DNA of 64,000 bases, from positions 36,260 to 100,259 of the forward strand of contig JANSYR010000012.1 in assembly GCA_024742285.1 (NCBI GenBank), given 5' to 3'. Shown piece after piece: positions 5,384 to 34,592 of the stretch. The notes under the pieces were generated by a model that worked only from the letters and a program-made list of their open reading frames with translations, had not been told where the DNA came from and ran no database searches. This DNA comes from a bacterium (lineage in GTDB: Bacteria; Myxococcota_A; UBA9160; UBA4427). The position numbers and the translations under genes were made by a program. Position 1 is the stretch's first letter. Each line of letters begins with the position of its first letter.

Positions 5384-6289
5384 ATGGCGGAGGCGGGACG
5401 CCGCGCGTTCGTGACGGGCGGGACGCGGGGGATCGGCAAGAGCATCTGCCGCGAGTTCGCGCGCGCGGGCTTCGACGTCGCGTTCACGGGCCGGACCCTG
5501 CACGAGGGGGAAGGGCGGGAAGAGGACGAGCAGGGCAATGCGACGCCCCTCGAAGGCAGCCTCGAATCGACGCGCGCCGAGGTCGAGGCCTTCGGCCGCG
5601 AGGCGCTTCCGATCCAGCTCGATCTGCTCGATCCGGAATCCGTCGACGCCGGCGCACGGACGGCCCTCGACGCCTGGCGCGGGGTCGACGTCCTCGTCAA
5701 CAACGCGATGTACGAGATGGGTCGCTACACGAACGCCTGGATCAAGGACACGCCGATGGAAGAGTTCGCGGCGAAGATCCAGGCCAACTTCCTGGCGCCG
5801 ATCGCCCTGGTGAAGCGTTTCCTGCCCGGGATGATCGAGCGCGGCGGCGGGCGGGTCATCAACCTCTCCACCCGGCACAACTACCAGAAGCAGGGGGGGC
5901 CGCCGGGGCAGGGTGGGGCGGGCGTGTCCTACAACTGCTCGAAGGCGGCCTGCGGGAAGATCGCCGACGGGCTCGCGGCGGAGCACGACCGCGACGGGAT
6001 CGTCGCCTTCGACCTGGATCCCGGCCCCGTCATGACCGAGCGCTTCCACACCCAGGGCCACCGGCTCGGCTACCCGAAGACGCTCTTCTGCCCGGTCGAA
6101 GTTCCCGCGGTGGCCGCGCTCTGGCTGGCGACCGAGGACGAGGCGGCCGAGTACAACGGCCAGCACTTCATGGCGCAGGAGTTCGTCCGGCAGCGCGGGC
6201 TCTGGGAAGACTGGGAGAGCGTGCTGCCGATGAACCGCGGCTGGACGCCGACGGCGATCCTCGACTGGCGCGAGCCGCGGGGGCGCTGA
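5384..6289 (+). CDS. SDR-family oxidoreductase
   Basis: ATG at 5384 preceded by GGAGGAG; TGGTRGIGKSI Rossmann motif, NNAM, YNCSKAA catalytic YxxxK. The listed ORF start at 5129 is an upstream extension. Confidence 0.7.
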   Translation: MAEAGRRAFVTGGTRGIGKSICREFARAGFDVAFTGRTLHEGEGREEDEQGNATPLEGSLESTRAEVEAFGREALPIQLDLLDPESVDAGARTALDAWRGVDVLVNNAMYEMGRYTNAWIKDTPMEEFAAKIQANFLAPIALVKRFLPGMIERGGGRVINLSTRHNYQKQGGPPGQGGAGVSYNCSKAACGKIADGLAAEHDRDGIVAFDLDPGPVMTERFHTQGHRLGYPKTLFCPVEVPAVAALWLATEDEAAEYNGQHFMAQEFVRQRGLWEDWESVLPMNRGWTPTAILDWREPRGR

Positions 6290-6421
6290 CCGACGACGAG
6301 GGGCCGCCAGGGGCCCCGAGGACGCTCCGATTGCGGGTGTGTTGCCACCTCGCGGGCCCGATCCGGCAGCTACAATGACCGGCATTCACTCGGCCGCCTT
6401 CCCCACCCGGCCGGACCAGGA

Positions 6422-8176
<1,755 letters not shown>

Positions 8177-8202
8177 GAATCCACACCGGGAGGGCGACGT
8201 CG

Positions 8203-9474
8203 ATGGCGGCATCCGAAGAGATCGGACGGGATACGCAGTTCGGGACCTATCGCGGGGCGGGGCTTCCCTGGGTCGACTTCGATGCGTTCCATCAGGAAGA
8301 GCTCCCCAGGCGCCTCGAAGAGGGTGTGAACGAGCAGGTCGCCTGGGACGTGGCCGGTCGCGATCCGATCTCGATCGGATTGCCGGACGGTCGCTTCTAC
8401 ACCTACCGATGTCGTGAGGGGCGCATCCTCGTGGAGCCCGGGCAGGCGAAGGATGCCCGGACCATCCTCGAGATCGTCGATCACGAGTCCTGGCTCGACT
8501 ATCTCTACGAGTTCCGAACCCGCTACGGCCTCCTCTTCAGCAACGCCGTGCGCTTCGTTCGCGGGGATTTCGAGACCTGGGACGAATGGGAGCCGGCGAT
8601 CCGCTGCATGTACTCGGGTCGGCCGATCTACGATCCGGAGCGTATCGAGTTCCGTGATCTCGCGGGCGAGCCGCTCGATCTCCATCGGAGCTTCGAGACC
8701 GGCGACGACCCCGAAGAGATGTCGAACTTTCTTCGGCAGACCGGGTTCCTCGTCGTGCGGCGCGCCTACGACCCGGAGCTGATCGCGACGCTCGGGAGCG
8801 AGCTCGATCGGGTGATCGCCGAGTCGACCGAGGGAAACCTCTACTCCTGGTGGGCGACGGACGCCGAGGGTGACCGCTTCCCCTATCGACTGACGTATCT
8901 CTCCGAGCAGTCCGAGATGATCGCGGGCCTCTACGACCATCCCCGGACGCGTCAGCTCGTCGCCCTCTCGAAGGAGGACGTCGTGCCGGTCCCCGATCGG
9001 ATCGAAGGGATCCTCGCGGTCGTGAAGAAGGAGGGCCTCGAGGCGGACGCCTCGGGTTACGCGAACCTCGAGTACCACTCGGACTGCGGCTTCGGCGCCT
9101 GCCACACGACGTGTCCCTGCGTCCTGGTCGGGATCCAGGTCGACGCCGCCGGCCCGGCGAGCTCCCAGCTCCACATGATGGCCGGGAGCTGGGGCAAGGC
9201 GTATCACAACGTCCCGTCGCAGATCACGCCCGACCGCTATCCCCTCGTCCCGATCGTGGCGGAGCCCGGAGACGCGACGGTCCACTTCGGCTGCGGGCTG
9301 CACGCCGGACCGCCGCCGACCGGTTCCGATCGTCGACGCACGCTCTACGTCCAGCACTACAGCCCGGGTGCGAGTCGGCTGATCGGTCGACACCAGGGCT
9401 ACAACCAGATCATGCCGGGCTACGGCGTCGGCGACATTCCGAACATCGACGAGATGCGCGAGCGCGTCGAGTAG
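8203..9474 (+). CDS. Putative Fe(II)/2-oxoglutarate-dependent dioxygenase (PhyH-like) with an extra N-terminal domain of about 170 aa
   Basis: C-terminal half has a PhyH-like start (GFLVVRRAYDPELIATL), HSD...H (LEYHSDCGF ... VHFGCGLHAG) and a candidate Arg. GGGAGGG RBS 8 nt upstream. Assignment is tentative. Confidence 0.4.
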   Translation: MAASEEIGRDTQFGTYRGAGLPWVDFDAFHQEELPRRLEEGVNEQVAWDVAGRDPISIGLPDGRFYTYRCREGRILVEPGQAKDARTILEIVDHESWLDYLYEFRTRYGLLFSNAVRFVRGDFETWDEWEPAIRCMYSGRPIYDPERIEFRDLAGEPLDLHRSFETGDDPEEMSNFLRQTGFLVVRRAYDPELIATLGSELDRVIAESTEGNLYSWWATDAEGDRFPYRLTYLSEQSEMIAGLYDHPRTRQLVALSKEDVVPVPDRIEGILAVVKKEGLEADASGYANLEYHSDCGFGACHTTCPCVLVGIQVDAAGPASSQLHMMAGSWGKAYHNVPSQITPDRYPLVPIVAEPGDATVHFGCGLHAGPPPTGSDRRRTLYVQHYSPGASRLIGRHQGYNQIMPGYGVGDIPNIDEMRERVE

Positions 9475-9517
9475 TCGTCCGGACGATCCGATTCCCGCCC
9501 GATCCCCAGGAGTCCCC

Positions 9518-10717
9518 ATGAAGCGCTACCTCGCGATCTCCTCCGACGGTCACGCCGGGCCGCAGCCCCAGCACTACCGCCCCTACGTCGACGCGAAGTA
9601 CCGCGACCTCTTCGACGAGGCCCTGAAGGTCCAGATCAAGCAGACGCAGGAAGCCGAGAAGATGTTCCTGATCGCGGACATCAACGAGAAGTGGCGAGAG
9701 GGCCACGAGTACGAGCTGACCGGGGCCTGGGATCACGACGCGCGGATCAAGGTCTGCGACGACGACGGCGTCGCGGCCGAGGTGCTCTTCCCCGACGGCA
9801 TCACCGAGATGAACTCGCCGCCCTTCGGCGCCGGCCTCGGACTGCCCACCAAGGACGTCGACCCGGAGCTCCAGTGGGCCGGCGCGCGGGCGCACAACCG
9901 ATGGACCGCGGAGTTCTGTCAGATGGCGCCGGAGCGGCGCTGCGGCGTCGCGGTCGTCCCGCTCATGTGGGACGTCGACGAGGCGATCAAGGAAGCGAAG
10001 TGGGCGCGGGAGCAGGACATGCGCTCGGTGATGATCCCCGTCATGTGGAACGATCATCCGCCCTACAACGATCCCTGCTACGACCCGTTCTGGGCCGTCT
10101 GCGAGGATCTCGGGCTGGTCGTGAACTACCACTCCGGGCCCGCGCCGCAGGAAGAGTATTTCGGGATCTGGCCCCCGAAGCCCGGCGACGAGATGCGTCG
10201 CGGCGGCATGGGCTGTTATCTCTCCGAGGTGCTCTGGTTCGTCGCGCGCCCACTCACGTTCCTGATCTGGGGCGGCGTCTTCGAGAAGTTCCCCAAGCTC
10301 AAGGTCTCGACGACCGAAGGGATGGCCGACTGGGTTCCGCATCAGCTCGGGATCTGGGACTGGCACTACGAGCACTCCGCCCAGGAGCAGAAGCTCGGGG
10401 ATTACGTGAGCCACCTCTCGATGAAGCCGTCGGAGTATTTCCGCCGGAACGTGCGCGTGGGCTCGATGGTCACGCGCAAGGAAGCGCTCGATCGAGAGAA
10501 CATCGGGATCAAGAGCTTCATGTGGGGTACCGACTATCCCCACCCGGAAGGAACCTGGCCCTCGACCGAGGAGAAGATCGATACCGCCTTCGAGGGGCTG
10601 CCCGAGGACGACATCGCGAACATTCTCGGGATCAACGCCGCCGAGTGGTACGACTTCGACGTAGAGAAGCTGGCGCCGATCGTGGACCGGATCGGACCGA
10701 CGGCGGATCGGTTCTAG
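9518..10717 (+). CDS. Amidohydrolase-2 family metal-dependent hydrolase (ACMSD-like)
   Basis: ISSDGHAGP N-terminus, HSGP, WGTDYPHPEG C-terminal motif typical of PF04909. Confidence 0.65.
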   Translation: MKRYLAISSDGHAGPQPQHYRPYVDAKYRDLFDEALKVQIKQTQEAEKMFLIADINEKWREGHEYELTGAWDHDARIKVCDDDGVAAEVLFPDGITEMNSPPFGAGLGLPTKDVDPELQWAGARAHNRWTAEFCQMAPERRCGVAVVPLMWDVDEAIKEAKWAREQDMRSVMIPVMWNDHPPYNDPCYDPFWAVCEDLGLVVNYHSGPAPQEEYFGIWPPKPGDEMRRGGMGCYLSEVLWFVARPLTFLIWGGVFEKFPKLKVSTTEGMADWVPHQLGIWDWHYEHSAQEQKLGDYVSHLSMKPSEYFRRNVRVGSMVTRKEALDRENIGIKSFMWGTDYPHPEGTWPSTEEKIDTAFEGLPEDDIANILGINAAEWYDFDVEKLAPIVDRIGPTADRF

Positions 10718-11157
10718 TCCCGCATCCCCGTCTCGTGGAGATGGCGCCAGCGCCATCCGGATCCGCGCGCGTCCCGCAGGAGCCAGACCGAGGAGCGCCG
10801 CGCGTTCTCCGGTGGCGTCGACTGCCGGGCGCCGCGCTGACGTTCGACGTAGGTCGCGACCACGCGTACGCCGTCCTCGCTTCGGTCGACGTCGACGACG
10901 CGCACGTCTTCGATCGTGATCCGGAAGTCGGGATTCGAGCCGTACTCGGCACGGATCTTCTCGAGGATCGTTCGGCCGGGGTGTGCGATCCCCGACGGCT
11001 GGATGTTGATCATCGCCGTCGGCCACCTCGCCGAGAGGTTGCGATCGAAGACGGCGTCGTCTCTCGGGACGTCCCCCCGGAACCACGCCGAGAGATAGTC
11101 GTGAAAGGCCTCGACTTCCGCCGCGACCTCGCGAGCGAGCGCGTCGCCCTCGCTCAT
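10714..11157 (-). CDS. SnoaL-like / NTF2-fold protein (DUF4440-like)
   Basis: 147 aa; small fold pattern EVEAFHDYLSAWFRGD; overlaps neighbours by 4 nt on both sides. Confidence 0.45.
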   Translation of the reverse strand: MSEGDALAREVAAEVEAFHDYLSAWFRGDVPRDDAVFDRNLSARWPTAMINIQPSGIAHPGRTILEKIRAEYGSNPDFRITIEDVRVVDVDRSEDGVRVVATYVERQRGARQSTPPENARRSSVWLLRDARGSGWRWRHLHETGMRD

Positions 11158-30118: not shown

Positions 30119-30315
30119 GGCGACCTCCGGGGTTTGGGCGCAATCGGGAGCATCGAGCAGGCGTCGGGCGCCCGGAAGGGCCAATTGCCGGACGATGTCG
30201 GGCACCAATCTCGTGGAAGGCGGGAGGACGGGCGCGCGATGCCGGCGCGATGCCGATCCGTGTTCGTATCACGGTCGAACTAACAGACTTTATCGGGGAG
30301 AGCGTCGATTTTTCG

Positions 30316-30343
30316 TTGACAGGATCGGGATCGACGATAAATT
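30316..30343 (+). promoter_or_regulatory. Sigma70-like promoter (TTGACA-N16-TAAATT) in an AT-rich patch, bracketed by the inverted repeat CGTCGAT/ATCGACG
   Basis: Read from sequence; an AT-rich patch in a 70% GC genome; it sits 30 nt upstream of a small ORF with a GAGGT RBS. Confidence 0.3.
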
Positions 30344-30372
30344 GCGCCGCCACTCCAGACGAGGTACGAGCC

Positions 30373-30543
30373 ATGTTGGTCTCGCGAACAGGATGGAATC
30401 AGATGCGACGGCAGATGCAGACGGTGTGTCGAGCGGCGTTGGCTTCGAACGGCGGCGAATTCGCCGGGTTCGAGAGCCATATCGGCTCACTCCGCTTCGG
30501 CCTGGCTGATTCGGAATCCGACCTCGTCTCGCTCGCGCCCTAG
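30373..30543 (+). CDS. Hypothetical small protein (56 aa)
   Basis: ATG with a GAGGT RBS 8 nt upstream, downstream of the promoter-like element. No similarity recognised; this could also be part of a non-coding leader. Confidence 0.2.
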   Translation: MLVSRTGWNQMRRQMQTVCRAALASNGGEFAGFESHIGSLRFGLADSESDLVSLAP

Positions 30544-30744: not shown

Positions 30745-30832
30745 GCGAACGACGATGGCGGATCTGGTTCAACGGGAGAACGCCGGAATGTGACTCCGGA
30801 GATGTCGGGTTCGATTCCCACGGTTCGCACCA
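30745..30832 (+). tRNA. tRNA-like element, degenerate (His-like anticodon arm CCGGA-AUGUGAC-UCCGG, T-loop GGGTTCGATTCCC, ends ACCA)
   Basis: Folded by eye: the 3' half resembles tRNA-His (anticodon GTG, T-arm, acceptor, ACCA), but the 5' half is 12 nt too long and the T-stem has mismatches. Possible pseudo-tRNA. Confidence 0.25.
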
Positions 30833-30985
30833 CTTTCACGGATGAACTCGCAGATAGAGGAGAGATCCGAAAACGAGCATCGCGAATGCGATCGGTCACC
30901 AGCGGAGTCGGTTCTGTATGCCGACCCGGGGCGAGGGAGTTCGTTCTCCCCGCGTCTACCGGGGCCCCTCGCGCGCGACGCACCA

Positions 30986-31059
30986 GCGTGGATAGCTCAG
31001 CAGGTGAGAGCAACGGACGCAGAATCCGTAGGCCGCAGGTTCGATTCCTGCTCCATTCG
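30986..31059 (+). tRNA. tRNA-like element / probable pseudo-tRNA (D-arm TAGCTCAGCAGGTGAGAGC, anticodon stem ACGGA/TCCGT, T-arm GCAGGTTCGATTCCTGC)
   Basis: Full cloverleaf geometry of 73 nt, but G at position 33 of the anticodon loop (loop cgCAGaa) and two non-Watson-Crick acceptor pairs. No CCA. Confidence 0.3.
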
Positions 31060-31079
31060 CTTCTTTACCCGAAGCACCC

Positions 31080-31123
31080 CTGGTTGGTCCGAGAGGATCG
31101 GGGTTCGACTCCCCACAGCCGGC
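31080..31123 (+). tRNA. Partial tRNA 3' fragment (T-arm CGGGGTTCGACTCCCC plus acceptor 3' strand); possible att-site remnant
   Basis: T-loop consensus GGTTCGACTCC followed by a 7 nt acceptor-like strand; no D or anticodon arm; the preceding 18 nt weakly resemble the antisense of the tRNA-Pro 3' end. Confidence 0.25.
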
Positions 31124-31484
31124 CGGGCATCCGGCCCCAACAGAAGCGCGAGGCCCTCTCGCCCTTCGAGACGTCGACGACGCGCCCCGGCACGTCCGAG
31201 ACGAATCGATCGGCAGCGCGGAGGACGCCCTGAGCGCTGGCCCCTGTGGCGCGCCCGGAGTGTGGACGAAGGGCCGCCGCGATCGACTTCGCCCTTGCGG
31301 CGACGTGTCTCCCGACCCGTCGCCGCGAGAACGCGCGGGTCGACTCGCCGCGACTGCGGGAGAGATGTTCCCGGTGCGCGCAAGCCAGCGACCGCCCCTC
31401 CACGTGGAGGGCCTCGCCGAGGGTTCCCGGGACGCGAACTTCGCGCCCGGAACGAACGAGAGAGAAGGAACGGAGGTAGACGAC

Positions 31485-32636
31485 ATGTGGATGATCAAGA
31501 CCGTCGCCGTCGCCGAGCACGAGCGAGCGCTCCTGTTCCGCGATGGTCGCTTCGAACGGGTCCTGGGCCCGGGCCGACACCGCGTCGTGTCGATCCGCCC
31601 GAGCGCGCGGATTCGCGTCGACGAGTTCGACCTGACCGATCTGGTCTTCGTGCACCCGCTCGCGGACTTCCTCGTGAACACGTACCCGAAGCTTCGGGAG
31701 GACGTGTTCGAGGTCGTCGAGACCGGGGACGCCGAAGTCGCGGTCGTGCGAGCCGATGGCCAGGTCCACGAAGTCGTGGCGCCGGCCTCTCGCCGGATCT
31801 TCTGGCGCGGTGCGTACCGGGTCGACGTCGAGCGCTTCGACATCGCCGAGACCTTCGAGGTCGTGGGCGACGTGGCGAGCCTGATCCGTCAGCTCGCGCT
31901 CGTCGACCGTACGGCCCTCGCCGCAGCGATCAGCTTCGACGAGGTCCCGGAAGGCGAGGTCGGCCTGCTCTTCGTCGACGGTCAGCTCGACCGGGTCCTG
32001 GATCCGGGTCCGCACGCGTTCTGGAAGTTCAACCGGACGCTGCGGGTCTTCCGGGTTCCGACGCGGCTCCAGACCGTCGAGGTCACTGGTCAGGAGATCC
32101 TGTCGAAGGACAAGGTCTCCCTGCGGCTGAACCTGACCGCGAGCTACCGGGTTCGCGATCCGGTCGAGGCCTACCGGGCGACCACGAACTACGGCGACTT
32201 TCTCTACAAGGAGCTGCAGTTCGGTCTGCGCGAGGTGGTCGGAGGGCGAACGCTCGACGAGATCCTCGCCGAAAAGGAAGTGCTCAACGAGGCCATCGAG
32301 GCGCGCGTCCGCGACCGCGTCGTGGACTACGGACTCGATCTCGTGAGCATCGGTGTGAAGGACATCGTCCTCCCCGGTGAGATGAAGGCCATCCTGAATC
32401 AGGTGGTCGAAGCGGAGAAGGTCGCCCAGGCGAACCTGATCCGACGCCGGGAGGAGACCGCGGCGACGCGGTCGCTCCACAACACCGCCCGGATGCTGGA
32501 ACAGAGCCCGCTCCTGGTTCGGCTCAAGGAGCTCGAGGCGCTCGAGAAGGTCACCGAGCGGGTGGGTTCGCTCACCGTTCTGGGTGGTCTCGAGGGCGTG
32601 CTCGACGGACTCGTGAAGATCCGGAAGGACGAGTGA
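31485..32636 (+). CDS. SPFH/band-7 (stomatin/prohibitin/HflC-like) domain protein with an N-terminal partial internal duplication
   Basis: ATG 31485 with GGAGG RBS. C-terminal two-thirds is canonical SPFH (SKDKVSLRLNLTASYRVRDPVEAY...LDEILAEKEVLNEAIEARV...VSIGVKDIVLPGEMKAILNQVVEAEK). The N-terminal ERALLFRDGRFERVLGPGRHRV repeats EVGLLFVDGQLDRVLDPGPHAF. Confidence 0.75.
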   Translation: MWMIKTVAVAEHERALLFRDGRFERVLGPGRHRVVSIRPSARIRVDEFDLTDLVFVHPLADFLVNTYPKLREDVFEVVETGDAEVAVVRADGQVHEVVAPASRRIFWRGAYRVDVERFDIAETFEVVGDVASLIRQLALVDRTALAAAISFDEVPEGEVGLLFVDGQLDRVLDPGPHAFWKFNRTLRVFRVPTRLQTVEVTGQEILSKDKVSLRLNLTASYRVRDPVEAYRATTNYGDFLYKELQFGLREVVGGRTLDEILAEKEVLNEAIEARVRDRVVDYGLDLVSIGVKDIVLPGEMKAILNQVVEAEKVAQANLIRRREETAATRSLHNTARMLEQSPLLVRLKELEALEKVTERVGSLTVLGGLEGVLDGLVKIRKDE

Positions 32637-32688
32637 CGCAGGTCGTTCTCCTTCCTCGGAATCGGGATCGATCGCGGGTCCACCGGAC

Positions 32689-32719
32689 GGCCCGGTCCTG
32701 CTTCGTGCAGGGCCGGGCC
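32689..32719 (+). terminator. Strong hairpin (13 bp stem, UUCGU loop) between the SPFH and PcfJ-like genes; terminator or attenuator-like, no U-tract
   Basis: GGCCCGGTCCTGC-TTCGT-GCAGGGCCGGGCC read from sequence (one G-U pair). Confidence 0.3.
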
Positions 32720-32800
32720 CATTCGGGGCGCAGTCCACGCGCCCCGGAACGAACGATCGATTCGCGCGGAACGTGATCCCGCGCTGGAACGGATGAACAC

Positions 32801-34270
32801 GTGGCCACTCGAGCCCGGGTCGCGGCGCCGCGACCTCCGCAGGAGGTCCCGCTCCGCGTACAGAAGCATTTGCGTCGTCTCGGCCTGTACACCGGTGAGG
32901 ACTACCTCCGCTGGTGCATGCGCCGGGGGTTCGCGGCGTCCTATCGAAAGACCTGGGATGCGCTCGAAGAGGAGTGGTCCGCGCACGGTCGCGAGATCGC
33001 GCAGGCACAGTCTCGTCTCAAGGTCGATCGGGATCCGGCGAAGCTGATCGCACGTGTGTGCGAAGGAAAGCTCCGGCCGCGGGACATCGCGCGGCCCCGC
33101 TGGCGCGCGCTCGCGGAGCGGATCGATGCCCAGCCGATGACCGCGCGGCAGACCCGCGCCCTCCGTCGGCTCGTGGAAGTCGTTCTGAAGCGCGGTCGAC
33201 TCCTCCTCGCGGAGGGGGAGGTCGGTGGCGATCGACTTCCGTATCTCGACGCGCTGATCGTGCTGGCGCAGAACCACCGGCACTGGGTTCGGAAGCCCGT
33301 CGACTGGCACCCGCGCACGCACAACGCCGAACGTCAGCTCGCTTCGCTGATCCGCCATCTGATTGCGAGGTATCCGGTGCCCGCGTTCATGGACGCCGCC
33401 TGGCTTCGGTCCGGCGAAACGGCGCTTGCGTATCGACGGTGGTACCGCGCGATCGGTCGCGGAGAGAATCTGCGTCACCAGGAAGGGCCGATCCCCTGGA
33501 CGAACCGGATCGTGCACTGGTTCCTGAAGGCGCCGGCGCATCTCTCCATCGAGGCGGCCATTCGCTGGGGACAGGTCCGCGCCGAAGGCGGGAACGAAGC
33601 GCTGGCCCGCGCGATCGTCGCGTCCAGGATCGGCCGGAACTTCGAACACGACGCCTTCTGGGTCACGGTGATCCGATTCCTCGTCCTTCACGACTGGATC
33701 CTCCCTCGCGCCGTCGGTCCCATCATCGACTATCTGCACCACCAGAGGTTCGTCGTCGTCGAGGCCTTCGAGGCGCCCGGCGTGCGAGCCCCCGCGCGCC
33801 CCGCGCAGCCCAACCTGACGATGCGAGGCCGGTCTCCCTTCGCACTCCTGCGGGAGGTCGAGCGGTGGCACCGCGACCTGGCCAGGACGCCGACGCGTGG
33901 ACCGATCTCCTGGCCCGGTTCGGGCATCCGCGAGTTCTCCCAGGAAACGGGCATCAAGGGACGCACGCTCCAGGTCTGGCTCATCCGCGAGCTCCGCTCC
34001 GCCGCGGCGCTCCACGCCGAGGGCGCACGCATGCGCCACTGCGTCGCGACCTACGTTCCTGAGTGCCGCGACGGCGACTGCTCCATCTGGACGATGGAGC
34101 GCCACTCCTTCGAAGGCATCGACGCCCGGGTGACGATCGAAGTCAACCGTGAGGGCGAGATCGTCGAAGTGCGCGGCAAGGCGAACCGTGAGCCGTCCGA
34201 GCGGGAGCTCGAGGTGATCCGCTCGTGGGCCGCGCGCGAGCGGCTTCAGCTCGCGCCCATCATCGGCTGA
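32801..34270 (+). CDS. PcfJ-like protein (plasmid/mobile-element-associated family of unknown function)
   Basis: C-terminal LHAEGARMRHCVATYVPECRDGDCSIWTMER matches the EGxxMxHCVxxY signature I recall for the PcfJ-like family (PF14284). GTG start at 32801; start uncertain. Confidence 0.5.
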   Translation: MATRARVAAPRPPQEVPLRVQKHLRRLGLYTGEDYLRWCMRRGFAASYRKTWDALEEEWSAHGREIAQAQSRLKVDRDPAKLIARVCEGKLRPRDIARPRWRALAERIDAQPMTARQTRALRRLVEVVLKRGRLLLAEGEVGGDRLPYLDALIVLAQNHRHWVRKPVDWHPRTHNAERQLASLIRHLIARYPVPAFMDAAWLRSGETALAYRRWYRAIGRGENLRHQEGPIPWTNRIVHWFLKAPAHLSIEAAIRWGQVRAEGGNEALARAIVASRIGRNFEHDAFWVTVIRFLVLHDWILPRAVGPIIDYLHHQRFVVVEAFEAPGVRAPARPAQPNLTMRGRSPFALLREVERWHRDLARTPTRGPISWPGSGIREFSQETGIKGRTLQVWLIRELRSAAALHAEGARMRHCVATYVPECRDGDCSIWTMERHSFEGIDARVTIEVNREGEIVEVRGKANREPSERELEVIRSWAARERLQLAPIIG

Positions 34271-34475: not shown

Positions 34476-34552
<77 letters not shown>

Positions 34553-34592
34553 ACCGAGCGCCGGAGTATACGGGCTCCGACGCGGCCCTCAA

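What the first reader, a model, noticed from the sequence alone, without database searches (positions are those of the whole stretch)
31485..34270. Two-gene cassette: duplicated-SPFH protein plus PcfJ-like protein, a candidate uncharacterised system
The first gene encodes a band-7/SPFH domain protein whose N-terminal 150 aa is a degenerate repeat of the start of the canonical SPFH domain (ERALLFRDGRFERVLGPGRHRV against EVGLLFVDGQLDRVLDPGPHAF), a tandem-SPFH architecture. There is no NfeD partner. The second gene encodes a 489 aa protein whose C-terminus carries the EGxxMxHCVxxY-type signature I associate with PcfJ-like proteins, a family known only from conjugative plasmids and mobile elements with no assigned function. 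The pair is co-oriented, separated by a strong hairpin, and sits on a tRNA-linked island. SPFH scaffolds organise membrane microdomains and proteases; pairing one with a mobile-element protein of unknown function is not a described system as far as I know.
Basis: partly seen in the sequence, partly recalled or inferred. Interest (0 to 1): 0.7.

Follow-up and report, generated by a model that had tools for sequence, protein, structure and literature searches.

The report
tRNA-like RNA, Band-7 and PcfJ cassette
The two genes are real and recur together elsewhere, but they are a stripped-down version of a predicted bacterial RNA-repair module (tRNA-like RNA plus a soluble Band-7 protein, usually beside the RtcB ligase), which gives the orphan PcfJ family its first functional context.

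Summary
Gene A (31485-32636) is a Band_7/SPFH protein and gene B (32801-34270) carries a PcfJ domain. They are co-oriented, separated by a strong hairpin and flanked by tRNA genes.

The interpretation needs revising.
- Gene A is a soluble ~380-aa Band-7 protein. In 40 of 47 informative relatives it follows one or more same-strand tRNA-like genes. In most it is followed by RtcB, RtcA, RlaP and a CCA-adding enzyme, next to RtcR.
- This is the "Band-7 plus b7a-tRNA" RNA-repair module predicted by Burroughs and Aravind (2016).
- The window's "tRNA-Leu(CAG)" is that tRNA-like RNA. It has G33, no long variable arm, and a different anticodon in each close relative.
- In relatives this slot grows into arrays of 16-21 tRNA genes.
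- PcfJ follows Band-7 in six independent loci. One of these is a complete island: RtcR, RtcB, RtcA, tRNAs, Band-7, PcfJ, RlaP x2, Pnkp, Hen1.
- PcfJ also sits directly next to RtcB or Ro60 in four other phyla.
- The window has no ligase within 64 kb.
- A roughly 270-nt structured leader RNA supported by covariation precedes Band-7.

Verdict: a new variant of a known, untested kind. The PcfJ link to RNA repair and tRNA arrays appears unreported in the literature I could search. PcfJ's biochemistry remains unknown.

The parts
30758..30832 (+). tRNA-His(GTG)-like gene, probably degenerate; positional homologue of the last ordinary member (His) of the tRNA arrays in relatives
   Evidence: ARAGORN and Rfam tRNA, 51.4 bits. 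The drawn structure has only 3 T-stem pairs, two G-U pairs in the acceptor stem and discriminator A. The same His, conserved block, b7a order is found in L087, L111 and L152.
30900..30932 (+). Conserved non-coding block between the His-like tRNA and the b7a-tRNA (CAGCGGAGTCGGTTCTGTATGCCGACCCGGGGC); possibly a decayed tRNA or a processing signal
   Evidence: Nearly invariant in window, L087, L111 and L088 and recognisable in L152. Coordinates. Function not tested.
30986..31060 (+). Band-7-associated tRNA-like RNA gene (b7a-tRNA), called 'tRNA-Leu(CAG)' by ARAGORN
   Evidence: Rfam tRNA, 57.4 bits. It has G33 instead of U33, a C-T mismatch in the acceptor stem and no long variable arm. The positional homologue reads Gln-TTG in L087/L111 and His-GTG in L088, while the D and T arms stay identical. 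In 40 of 47 informative Band-7 loci a same-strand tRNA-like gene ends 170-670 nt upstream.
31086..31116 (+). Mini-helix: a short covarying hairpin followed by a T-arm-like GGGGTTCGANTCCCC
   Evidence: Hairpin pairs covary (GGTCC/GGATC, CGGC/GCCG, GCCC/GGGC). The T-arm-like stem is invariant in 7 loci. Coordinates.
31148..31417 (+). Structured leader RNA domain closed by long-range helix P1 (31148-31159 with 31406-31417), with inner helix P3 (31244-31258 with 31371-31384)
   Evidence: RNAalifold on 7 and on 10 loci. P1 is 12 bp with three compensatory positions and almost no broken pairs; P3 also covaries. Both P1 strand motifs are present in all 12 loci with Band-7 of at least 58% identity and in none below. 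No Rfam family matches at E<=1.
31485..32636 (+). Soluble Band-7/SPFH protein (383 aa): beta-rich N-terminal domain, SPFH domain, C-terminal coiled-coil region
   Evidence: Pfam Band_7 E=7e-37. No transmembrane-like segment. Orthologues at 36-84% identity lie in RtcR/RtcB/RtcA/RlaP/CCA operons. GGAGGT ribosome-binding site at 31472-31477.
32689..32719 (+). Intercistronic G+C-rich hairpin (13-bp stem, TTCG loop) with no U tract
   Evidence: Sequence. It folds as predicted, and hairpins of 13-15 bp at the equivalent place occur in L001, L003, L088 and L152 with different sequences. The intrinsic-terminator scan did not call it.
32801..34270 (+). PcfJ-domain protein (489 aa): long helical N-terminal region plus C-terminal alpha/beta PcfJ domain

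Best explanation
The cassette is a reduced, ligase-less variant of the Band-7/b7a-tRNA RNA-repair module, with a PcfJ-domain protein as its second gene.

Shown here:
- The Band-7 gene is an orthologue of the Band-7 genes that sit in RtcR-controlled rtcB-rtcA operons.
- It is preceded on the same strand by a tRNA-like gene with an unconstrained anticodon, a T-arm mini-helix and a conserved structured leader.
- PcfJ is a recurrent neighbour of Band-7, RtcB and Ro60 in several phyla.

Inferred mechanism:
1. The tRNA-like genes, the leader, Band-7 and PcfJ are transcribed as one precursor.
2. tRNA-processing enzymes release the tRNA-like RNA.
3. The soluble Band-7 protein oligomerises through its C-terminal helices, as SPFH proteins do, and binds the tRNA-like RNA. 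The resulting ribonucleoprotein scaffold would be analogous to Ro60 with Y RNA.
4. The scaffold either presents cleaved tRNAs to end-healing and sealing enzymes, or acts as a decoy for anticodon nucleases.
5. PcfJ is an accessory enzyme or cofactor acting on the RNA or on the scaffold.
6. In this genome the ligase must act in trans, or the module works without ligation.

In relatives the tRNA-like slot is expanded into arrays of 16-21 tRNA genes. This fits a role in keeping the tRNA pool functional under ribotoxin or translational stress.
For: Band-7 family context:
- 65 metagenome loci were fetched with the window protein at 36-84% identity.
- tblastn finds RtcB in 38 of them, RtcA in 24, RtcR in 23, RlaP in 19 and a CCA-adding enzyme in 14. 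By neighbour clustering RtcB lies immediately downstream of Band-7 in 32. Identities confirmed by Pfam: RtcB 8e-131, RTC 9e-77, RlaP 2e-89, RtcR 3e-80.

tRNA-like gene:
- 40 of 47 informative loci have a same-strand tRNA-like gene ending 170-670 nt upstream.
- 13 of 36 proximal tRNA-likes lack U33, against 13 of 168 other tRNAs. There are also 6- or 8-nt loops, 'stop' anticodons and A34 anticodons.
- In the window's close relatives the same gene reads Leu, Gln or His.

Literature:
- Band-7 plus 'b7a-tRNA' next to RtcB was predicted by Burroughs and Aravind 2016, as cited in bioRxiv 10.1101/312249.
- RtcR senses tRNA halves, and a decoy role has been proposed for the tRNA-like YrlA (PMC7790460).
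- Long tRNA arrays in cyanobacteria neighbour rtcB and are co-regulated with it (PMC8421152).

PcfJ context:
- L152/L153: RtcR | RtcB, RtcA, six tRNA genes (five ordinary plus the b7a-like one), Band_7, PcfJ, RlaP, RlaP | Pnkp, Hen1.
- L001 and L003: array of 16-18 tRNAs, Band_7, PcfJ.
- L088: b7a-tRNA, Band_7, PcfJ.
- L007: RtcR | RtcB, RtcA, PcfJ. RtcB followed by PcfJ also occurs in L008, L010, L016 and L018.
- L157: RtcB overlaps the PcfJ start by 4 nt, and a 47%-identical Band_7 lies upstream.
- L017: 40 tRNAs, Ro60/TROVE, PcfJ.
- L158: PcfJ followed by a flotillin-type Band_7.
- Overall, 9 of 10 independent close-clade PcfJ loci (47% identity or more) lie beside Band-7 and/or RtcB.
Against: - The window's 64 kb contains no RtcB, RtcA, RtcR, RlaP, Pnkp, Hen1, Ro60 or CCA-adding gene by tblastn. 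The defining enzyme of a repair system is therefore missing locally.
- The closest Band-7 relative (L087, 84% identity) has no PcfJ and no ligase nearby.
- Most of the 86 PcfJ loci at 42% identity or less show no RNA-repair neighbour. PcfJ is thus not an obligate repair component.
- No experiment has shown that the b7a-tRNA is expressed or that Band-7 binds RNA.
- No promoter or sigma-54 site could be located.
Confidence: 0.65

Rival explanations
1. tRNA-supply island. The unit is basically a stress-induced spare tRNA array, here decayed to two tRNA-like genes. Band-7 and PcfJ serve the array itself, for example in processing, stabilising or regulating the spare tRNAs or sequestering ribotoxins. 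They would not take part in RNA ligation and repair.
For: - Arrays of 16-21 co-oriented tRNA genes lie directly upstream of Band-7 in L001, L003, L089 and L090, with a shared gene order.
- The window's His-like tRNA aligns with the last ordinary (His) array gene in L152.
- PcfJ is also near a 40-tRNA array (L017) and a cyanobacterial long array (L010).
- Array tRNAs have been proposed to act as sponges for toxin RNases (PMC8421152).
- Several loci have an array or tRNA-like gene plus Band-7 and no ligase (L087, L089).
Against: - Most family members have only 1-3 tRNA-like genes with non-decoding anticodon loops, and are embedded in rtcBA operons.
- The arrays are confined to one clade.
- The window itself has no intact array.
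Confidence: 0.15
2. A membrane-associated SPFH scaffold paired with a mobile-element protein forms a new phage-defence or plasmid-exclusion system on a tRNA-targeted island.
For: - The pair is conserved with different outer flanks.
- The PcfJ C-terminal domain matches four phage protein families of unknown function.
- One distant PcfJ homologue lies beside SIR2/nSTAND and restriction-modification genes (L004).
Against: - Neither protein has a hydrophobic segment.
- There is no PADLOC hit.
- No integrase or repeat boundary was seen, and G+C is flat.
- The tRNAs are non-canonical system components, not attachment sites.
- No relative of this PcfJ subfamily was found in IMG/VR.
- The neighbours are RNA-repair enzymes, not defence effectors.
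Confidence: 0.07
3. Decaying remnant. The window carries the leftover of a once complete RtcR/RtcBA/Band-7/PcfJ/RlaP island, and the two genes no longer have a function here.
For: - The ligase, cyclase, regulator and nucleotidyltransferases found in L152/L153 are absent.
- The His-like tRNA has a 3-bp T stem.
- L155 shows that PcfJ can decay to a 151-aa fragment.
Against: - Both ORFs are full length and keep every invariant residue of their families.
- The leader, b7a-tRNA, ribosome-binding site and intercistronic hairpin are all intact and conserved.
- The same minimal b7a/Band-7/PcfJ layout exists in L088, and with arrays in L001 and L003.
Confidence: 0.08

Closest known systems
Band-7 / b7a-tRNA module of RtcB RNA-repair operons (predicted by Burroughs and Aravind, Nucleic Acids Res 2016; cited in bioRxiv 10.1101/312249)
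   Same: - An orthologous soluble Band-7 protein.
- A same-strand tRNA-like gene just upstream with a free-running anticodon.
- Relatives carry RtcR, RtcB, RtcA, RlaP and a CCA-adding enzyme.
   Different: - The window has no ligase, cyclase or regulator within 64 kb.
- The slot after Band-7 holds PcfJ.
- The clade adds a roughly 270-nt structured leader and a T-arm mini-helix.
- In relatives the tRNA-like slot is expanded to arrays of 16-21 tRNAs.
rsr-yrlBA-rtcBA operon of Salmonella (Ro60 plus the tRNA-like Y RNA YrlA, with RtcB and RtcA under RtcR)
   Same: - The same logic: a ring- or cage-forming scaffold protein, a tRNA-mimicking non-coding RNA and an RNA-repair context.
- PcfJ also occurs directly after a Ro60/TROVE gene (L017).
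   Different: - The scaffold is Band-7, not Ro60.
- The RNA is a free-standing tRNA-like gene, not a Y RNA; there is no Y RNA or YrlA hit in Rfam.
- The enzymes are absent here.
Long tRNA gene arrays (tRNA array units; L-arrays of cyanobacteria)
   Same: - Relatives have dense co-oriented arrays, for example 21 tRNAs in about 2.1 kb in L089.
- The link between arrays and rtcB is already noted for cyanobacteria.
   Different: - The window keeps only two tRNA-like genes, so it does not meet the array definition.
- Band-7 and PcfJ are not mentioned in the one array paper whose full text I searched (PMC8421152).
Membrane SPFH-NfeD operons (QmcA-YbbJ, HflK/C, stomatin)
   Same: - The SPFH domain and the C-terminal helical oligomerisation region.
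   Different: - No transmembrane segment, no NfeD partner and an extra beta-rich N-terminal domain.
- NCBIfam HflK and HflC scores are far below their cut-offs.
PcfJ of Enterococcus plasmid pCF10 (Pfam PF14284)
   Same: - The C-terminal domain matches the Pfam model above threshold, with the EG..M.HC..Y motif.
   Different: - Only about 80 residues match.
- The 390-aa helical N-terminal part is specific to this subfamily.
- The setting is chromosomal, beside RNA-repair genes rather than conjugation genes.

Membership tests
Band-7/b7a-tRNA RNA-repair module | Band-7/SPFH protein orthologous to those encoded in RtcB operons | tested here: met
   Pfam Band_7 E=7e-37. Full-length relatives at 36-84% identity lie beside RtcB in 38 of 65 loci.
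Band-7/b7a-tRNA RNA-repair module | tRNA-like non-coding RNA gene on the same strand just upstream of Band-7 | tested here: met
   30986-31060: tRNA fold with G33 and no long variable arm; the anticodon differs among close relatives. 40 of 47 family loci show such a gene.
Band-7/b7a-tRNA RNA-repair module | Adjacent RNA ligase (RtcB or another ligase) | tested here: not met
   No tblastn hit to RtcB (two types), Pnkp or other repair genes anywhere in the 64-kb window. The rest of the genome is unseen.
Band-7/b7a-tRNA RNA-repair module | RtcR (CARF plus sigma-54 activator) control | tested here: not met
   No RtcR hit in the window. A simple sigma-54 motif scan was uninformative even in loci that do have RtcR.
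Band-7/b7a-tRNA RNA-repair module | Expression of the tRNA-like RNA and its binding to Band-7 | not testable with these tools
   Not validated experimentally for any member, according to bioRxiv 10.1101/312249.
PcfJ-like (Pfam PF14284) | Match to the family model above the curated threshold | tested here: met
   50 bits against a cut-off of 25, aa 393-468 matching profile positions 66-142 of 147. All listed homologues carry PF14284.
Membrane SPFH-NfeD system | Membrane anchor on the SPFH protein and an adjacent NfeD gene | tested here: not met
   Maximum 19-residue hydropathy is 1.22. No NfeD ORF lies beside it. HflK and HflC models score 53, 36 and 23 bits against cut-offs of 159, 660 and 134.
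tRNA array unit (at least 20 tRNA genes at 2 or more per kb; Tran et al. 2016, PMC4758250) | At least 20 tRNA genes at the required density | tested here: not met
   The window has two tRNA-like genes upstream. The relative L089 has 21 in about 2.1 kb, and L001, L003 and L090 have 16-18. Definition taken from the abstract shown.
Known anti-phage defence systems (PADLOC-DB 2.0) | Match to any defence-protein model | tested here: not met
   No hit at E<=1 for either protein.
GNAT acyltransferases (considered for the PcfJ C-terminal domain) | GNAT fold with an acetyl-CoA-binding beta4-alpha3 motif | tested here: inconclusive
- Foldseek finds nothing at E<1e-3.
- No Pfam acetyltransferase hit.
- No Q/RxxGxG/A motif seen by eye in the alignment.

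The most novel reading that the evidence does not exclude
PcfJ is a previously unrecognised RNA-repair or RNA-end-processing factor that works on a Band-7/tRNA-like ribonucleoprotein. The tRNA arrays in relatives are expansions of the b7a-tRNA slot. Band-7, the tRNA-like RNA, the structured leader and PcfJ would then form a self-contained station. It would shield tRNAs cut by anticodon nucleases, acting as a decoy, or restore them. On this reading the PcfJ proteins of conjugative plasmids and phages would serve to protect translation during transfer or infection.
Probability: 0.25. Interest if true: 0.8.

Novelty: new variant of a known kind. Interest (0 to 1): 0.55.

Why it matters
- PcfJ (PF14284) is a widespread orphan family on conjugative plasmids, phages and chromosomes, with no assigned function. 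Repeated adjacency to RtcB, RtcA, RlaP, Ro60, Band-7 and tRNA arrays in at least five phyla gives it a concrete, testable context: tRNA damage and repair.
- The loci also connect two topics so far treated separately, namely the predicted Band-7/b7a-tRNA scaffold and long bacterial tRNA arrays.
- They reveal a covariation-supported leader RNA that is absent from Rfam.
- The Band-7/tRNA-like pair has never been tested experimentally. This compact two-gene version, which has no ligase, would be a convenient minimal system to ask what the scaffold and its RNA do on their own.

Tried and rejected
- PADLOC scan of both proteins: no hit.
- NCBIfam: only sub-threshold HflK/HflC hits for gene A and nothing for gene B.
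- Foldseek of the PcfJ model against the PDB: nothing below E=0.45. PDB sequence-profile search: nothing.
- IMG/VR scan with the PcfJ alignment: no relatives of this subfamily.
- Literature: a search for 'PcfJ' returned only C. elegans pCFJ plasmids. 'PcfJ-like', 'PF14284' and 'PcfJ domain' gave three papers, none functional by title or abstract. 'tRNA array' together with 'SPFH' gave none.
- The Burroughs and Aravind 2016 paper is not held in the library. Its content is therefore taken from a citing preprint and from memory. I could not check whether it already lists PcfJ.
- A sigma-54 promoter motif scan upstream of Band-7 found nothing convincing, even in loci with RtcR, so it says nothing about the window. 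The sigma-70 scan found no promoter on the + strand.
- Alignment A6 of the leaders was cut too short at the 5' side for three loci and was discarded. It was redone locally.
- Island hypothesis: the G+C profile is flat and no integrase is present.
- The idea that the SPFH tblastn search missed divergent SPFH genes next to other PcfJ genes was checked by clustering neighbours. The cluster that seemed to link them turned out to be tandem PcfJ paralogues.
- A vault-like reading (SPFH shoulder domain plus a small RNA) was considered. I found no evidence beyond the general analogy.


Full report
**1. What is in the window**

The ORF list shows two co-oriented genes at the stated coordinates.
- Gene A (31485-32636) matches Pfam Band_7 (E=7e-37).
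- Gene B (32801-34270) matches Pfam PcfJ (E=3.5e-13, above threshold).
- Neither matches a PADLOC defence model.
- Gene A reaches only sub-threshold scores for HflK and HflC.
- Three tRNA genes flank the pair: His(GTG) at 30758-30832 (+), "Leu(CAG)" at 30986-31060 (+) and Pro(CGG) at 34476-34552 (-).
- G+C is flat, and the downstream genes look like housekeeping genes by their sequences (my reading: rpe, rsmB, fmt, def, priA; not tested).
- A 13-bp hairpin lies between the genes at 32689-32719. It has no U tract and was not called as an intrinsic terminator.
- Neither protein has a hydrophobic segment.

**2. The N-terminal repeat**

The repeat is therefore real but partial. It is also a constant feature of a very large family of roughly 380-aa "slipin family" proteins.

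**3. Is the pair conserved?**

Gene B has 181 homologues, the best at 60-63% identity.
- In the two long contigs with 50-52% identical PcfJ (L001 from a Myxococcota MAG, and L003), a 382-384-aa Band_7 gene lies directly upstream while the outer flanks differ.
- More distant PcfJ genes (L004-L006) have no Band_7 neighbour.
- The gene-free gap upstream of Band_7 in L001 and L003 holds 16 and 18 co-oriented tRNA genes.

**4. The Band-7 side**

Sixty-five metagenome loci were fetched with gene A as query, at 36-84% identity.
- Forty of the 47 loci with an intact N-terminus and enough upstream DNA carry one or more same-strand tRNA or tRNA-like genes ending 170-670 nt before the start codon.
- A rough expectation for a random gene is well below 1%. 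This is my estimate from about 50 tRNA genes per genome.
- The proximal tRNA-likes share D and T arms but have free-running anticodon loops. The apparent identities include His, Gln, Ile, Leu, Arg, Ser, Thr, Lys and Met, along with 'stop' (TTA), A34 anticodons and 6- or 8-nt loops.
- Thirteen of 36 proximal tRNA-likes lack U33, against 13 of 168 other tRNAs in the same loci.

Clustering of neighbouring ORFs showed the usual context.
- The gene right after Band-7 is a roughly 408-aa protein in 32 loci.
- It is followed by a roughly 345-aa protein in 24 loci, and then by two nucleotidyltransferases.
- A divergent activator of about 530 aa lies upstream.
- Pfam identifies these as RtcB, RtcA, a CCA-adding-type enzyme, RlaP and RtcR.
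- tblastn counts: RtcB in 38 loci, RtcA in 24, RtcR in 23, RlaP in 19 and the CCA-adding enzyme in 14.

[quoted passage not shown] The preprint notes that it has not been validated experimentally. I could not obtain the 2016 paper itself.

**5. The window's upstream region re-read**

I aligned the window with its closest relatives: L087 and L111 (84% and 76% Band-7 identity) and L088 (74%).
- The "tRNA-Leu(CAG)" is the positional homologue of a "tRNA-Gln(TTG)" in L087/L111 and a "tRNA-His(GTG)" in L088. The arms are identical and all have G at position 33.
- ARAGORN's drawing shows a class-I cloverleaf with no long variable arm and a C-T mismatch in the acceptor stem. From general knowledge, a genuine bacterial tRNA-Leu has a long variable arm.
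- This gene is therefore the b7a-tRNA.
- The His-like gene has only three T-stem pairs. It corresponds to the last ordinary member of the arrays in relatives, where the order is His, a conserved block, then b7a.

Downstream of the b7a-tRNA come two further elements.
- A covarying hairpin fused to a T-arm-like GGGGTTCGANTCCCC lies at 31086-31116.
- A domain of about 270 nt is closed by a 12-bp long-range helix (31148-31159 with 31406-31417). That helix has three compensatory positions across ten loci. A second covarying long-range helix pairs 31244-31258 with 31371-31384.
- Both strand motifs of the closing helix occur in all 12 loci whose Band-7 is at least 58% identical, and in none of the more distant ones.
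- Rfam has no match.

**6. The PcfJ side**

Eighty genome loci with PcfJ homologues (29-52% identity) come from the following groups:
- Myxococcota
- Planctomycetota
- Alphaproteobacteria and Gammaproteobacteria
- Cyanobacteria
- Poribacteria
- Latescibacterota
- Gemmatimonadota

RNA-repair neighbours recur:
- L007: RtcR | RtcB, RtcA, PcfJ. RtcB followed by PcfJ is also found in L008, L010, L016 and L018.
- L017: 40 tRNA genes, a Ro60/TROVE-vWA gene, then PcfJ.
- L010: 11 tRNA genes about 5 kb from PcfJ, resembling the cyanobacterial long arrays described in PMC8421152.

Further look-ups in the close clade gave:
- L152/L153: RtcR | tRNA, RtcB, RtcA, six tRNA genes (five ordinary plus the b7a-like one), Band_7, PcfJ, RlaP, RlaP | Pnkp, Hen1.
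- L155: the same layout with a decayed PcfJ.
- L154: Band_7 without PcfJ.
- L157: RtcB overlapping the PcfJ start, with a 47%-identical Band_7 upstream.
- L158: PcfJ followed by a flotillin-type Band_7.
- L156: PcfJ alone.

Nine of ten independent close-clade loci therefore place PcfJ beside Band-7 and/or RtcB. In complete islands PcfJ is an addition to RtcB, not a replacement for it. The window holds none of the other repair genes.

**7. What PcfJ might be**

- The AlphaFold model is confident (pLDDT 85.7). It shows a long helical N-terminal part and a C-terminal beta-beta-alpha-alpha-beta-beta-beta-alpha domain that carries the invariant E407, G408, C414, Y418, C422, S428, W430 and E433; H413 is conserved in at least 90% of the sequences.
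- Foldseek finds nothing significant.
- There is no solved relative by sequence.
- Four phage protein families of unknown function match the C-terminal domain.
- No functional literature was found.
- The activity remains open. A metal- or thiol-dependent enzyme or a cofactor acting on RNA ends or tRNA is a guess.

**8. Mechanism**

Shown:
- Orthology of gene A to RtcB-operon Band-7 genes.
- Presence of the b7a-tRNA, the mini-helix and the structured leader.
- Recurrent adjacency of PcfJ to Band-7, RtcB and Ro60.
- A hairpin conserved in position after Band-7.

Inferred:
- Co-transcription of the whole unit.
- Release of the tRNA-like RNA by tRNA-processing enzymes.
- Formation of a soluble Band-7 and RNA scaffold, analogous to Ro60 with Y RNA.
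- A role in repairing tRNAs or shielding them from anticodon nucleases.

Published support for the inference:
- RtcR is activated by tRNA halves, and a decoy role has been suggested for tRNA-like YrlA (PMC7790460).
- A sponge role has been suggested for array tRNAs that are co-regulated with rtcB (PMC8421152).

**9. Verdict**

It is not an undescribed membrane or mobile-element system. It is a ligase-less, PcfJ-containing variant of the predicted Band-7/b7a-tRNA RNA-repair module.

Three things appear new with respect to the literature I could search:
- the PcfJ link;
- the tRNA-array expansion of the b7a slot;
- the structured leader.

I could not check the 2016 paper for PcfJ.

Noticed in passing
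window 31148-31417 (with 31086-31116): A conserved, covariation-supported structured RNA of about 270 nt in the Band-7 leader, plus a hairpin and T-arm mini-helix. There is no Rfam match. It is present in all 12 loci with Band-7 of at least 58% identity and absent by motif search from more distant ones.
   Followed up: partly
L017:51-9446 (Bythopirellula MAG OZ245849.1): An array of 40 co-oriented tRNA genes covering almost all amino acids. It is followed by a Ro60/TROVE-vWA gene (6085-7734) and then PcfJ (7947-9446). No Y RNA was looked for.
   Followed up: partly
L010:270-10830 (Cyanobacteria MAG JBCBKQ010000130.1): RtcB lies immediately before PcfJ. Eleven tRNA genes sit on the other strand, with a DUF6847 ORF (9021-9488) inside the array and an ORF with only weak, sub-threshold HNH/HTH hits (10075-10830) beyond it. 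This resembles the cyanobacterial long-array neighbourhood described in PMC8421152.
   Followed up: partly
L102-L119 (metagenome loci with Band-7 at 42-44% identity): Two or three tandem tRNA-like genes precede Band-7. The proximal one very often has a TTA ('ochre stop') anticodon in a conserved body. They could be decoys or suppressor-like RNAs.
   Followed up: no
L152:3280-3354 and L155:3330-3540: tRNA or tRNA-like genes (Arg-GCG; Pro-CGG plus Arg-GCG) also sit directly upstream of RtcB. tRNA-like leaders are therefore not restricted to the Band-7 gene in these islands.
   Followed up: no
L022, L024, L031, L033, L035, L058, L066 (about 5500-7750 in each): A second, divergent PcfJ paralogue lies immediately upstream of the PcfJ hit in several Planctomycetota loci and one Poribacteria locus, giving tandem PcfJ genes.
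   Followed up: no
L158:2083-5083: PcfJ is followed by a 494-aa flotillin-type Band_7 protein that is unrelated in sequence to gene A. This hints at a more general partnership between PcfJ and SPFH proteins.
   Followed up: no
L004:9039-13500 and L005: Distant PcfJ homologues lie near SIR2/nSTAND-NTPase and XhoI restriction-modification genes (L004). Another lies in a run of small phage-like ORFs with Prok-E2_D domains and a class-I tRNA synthetase (L005).
   Followed up: no
window 30250-30543 (+): A 97-aa ORF in a locally lower-G+C stretch between the GST-like gene and the His-like tRNA. It has no PHROG hit, and it was not scanned against Pfam. Whether it is a gene is unknown.
   Followed up: partly
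window 34476-34592 (-): The tRNA-Pro(CGG) gene scores as a normal tRNA (65.7 bits). It has the only sigma-70-like promoter match of the region just upstream (34592-34565). It looks like an ordinary housekeeping tRNA rather than part of the cassette.
   Followed up: no
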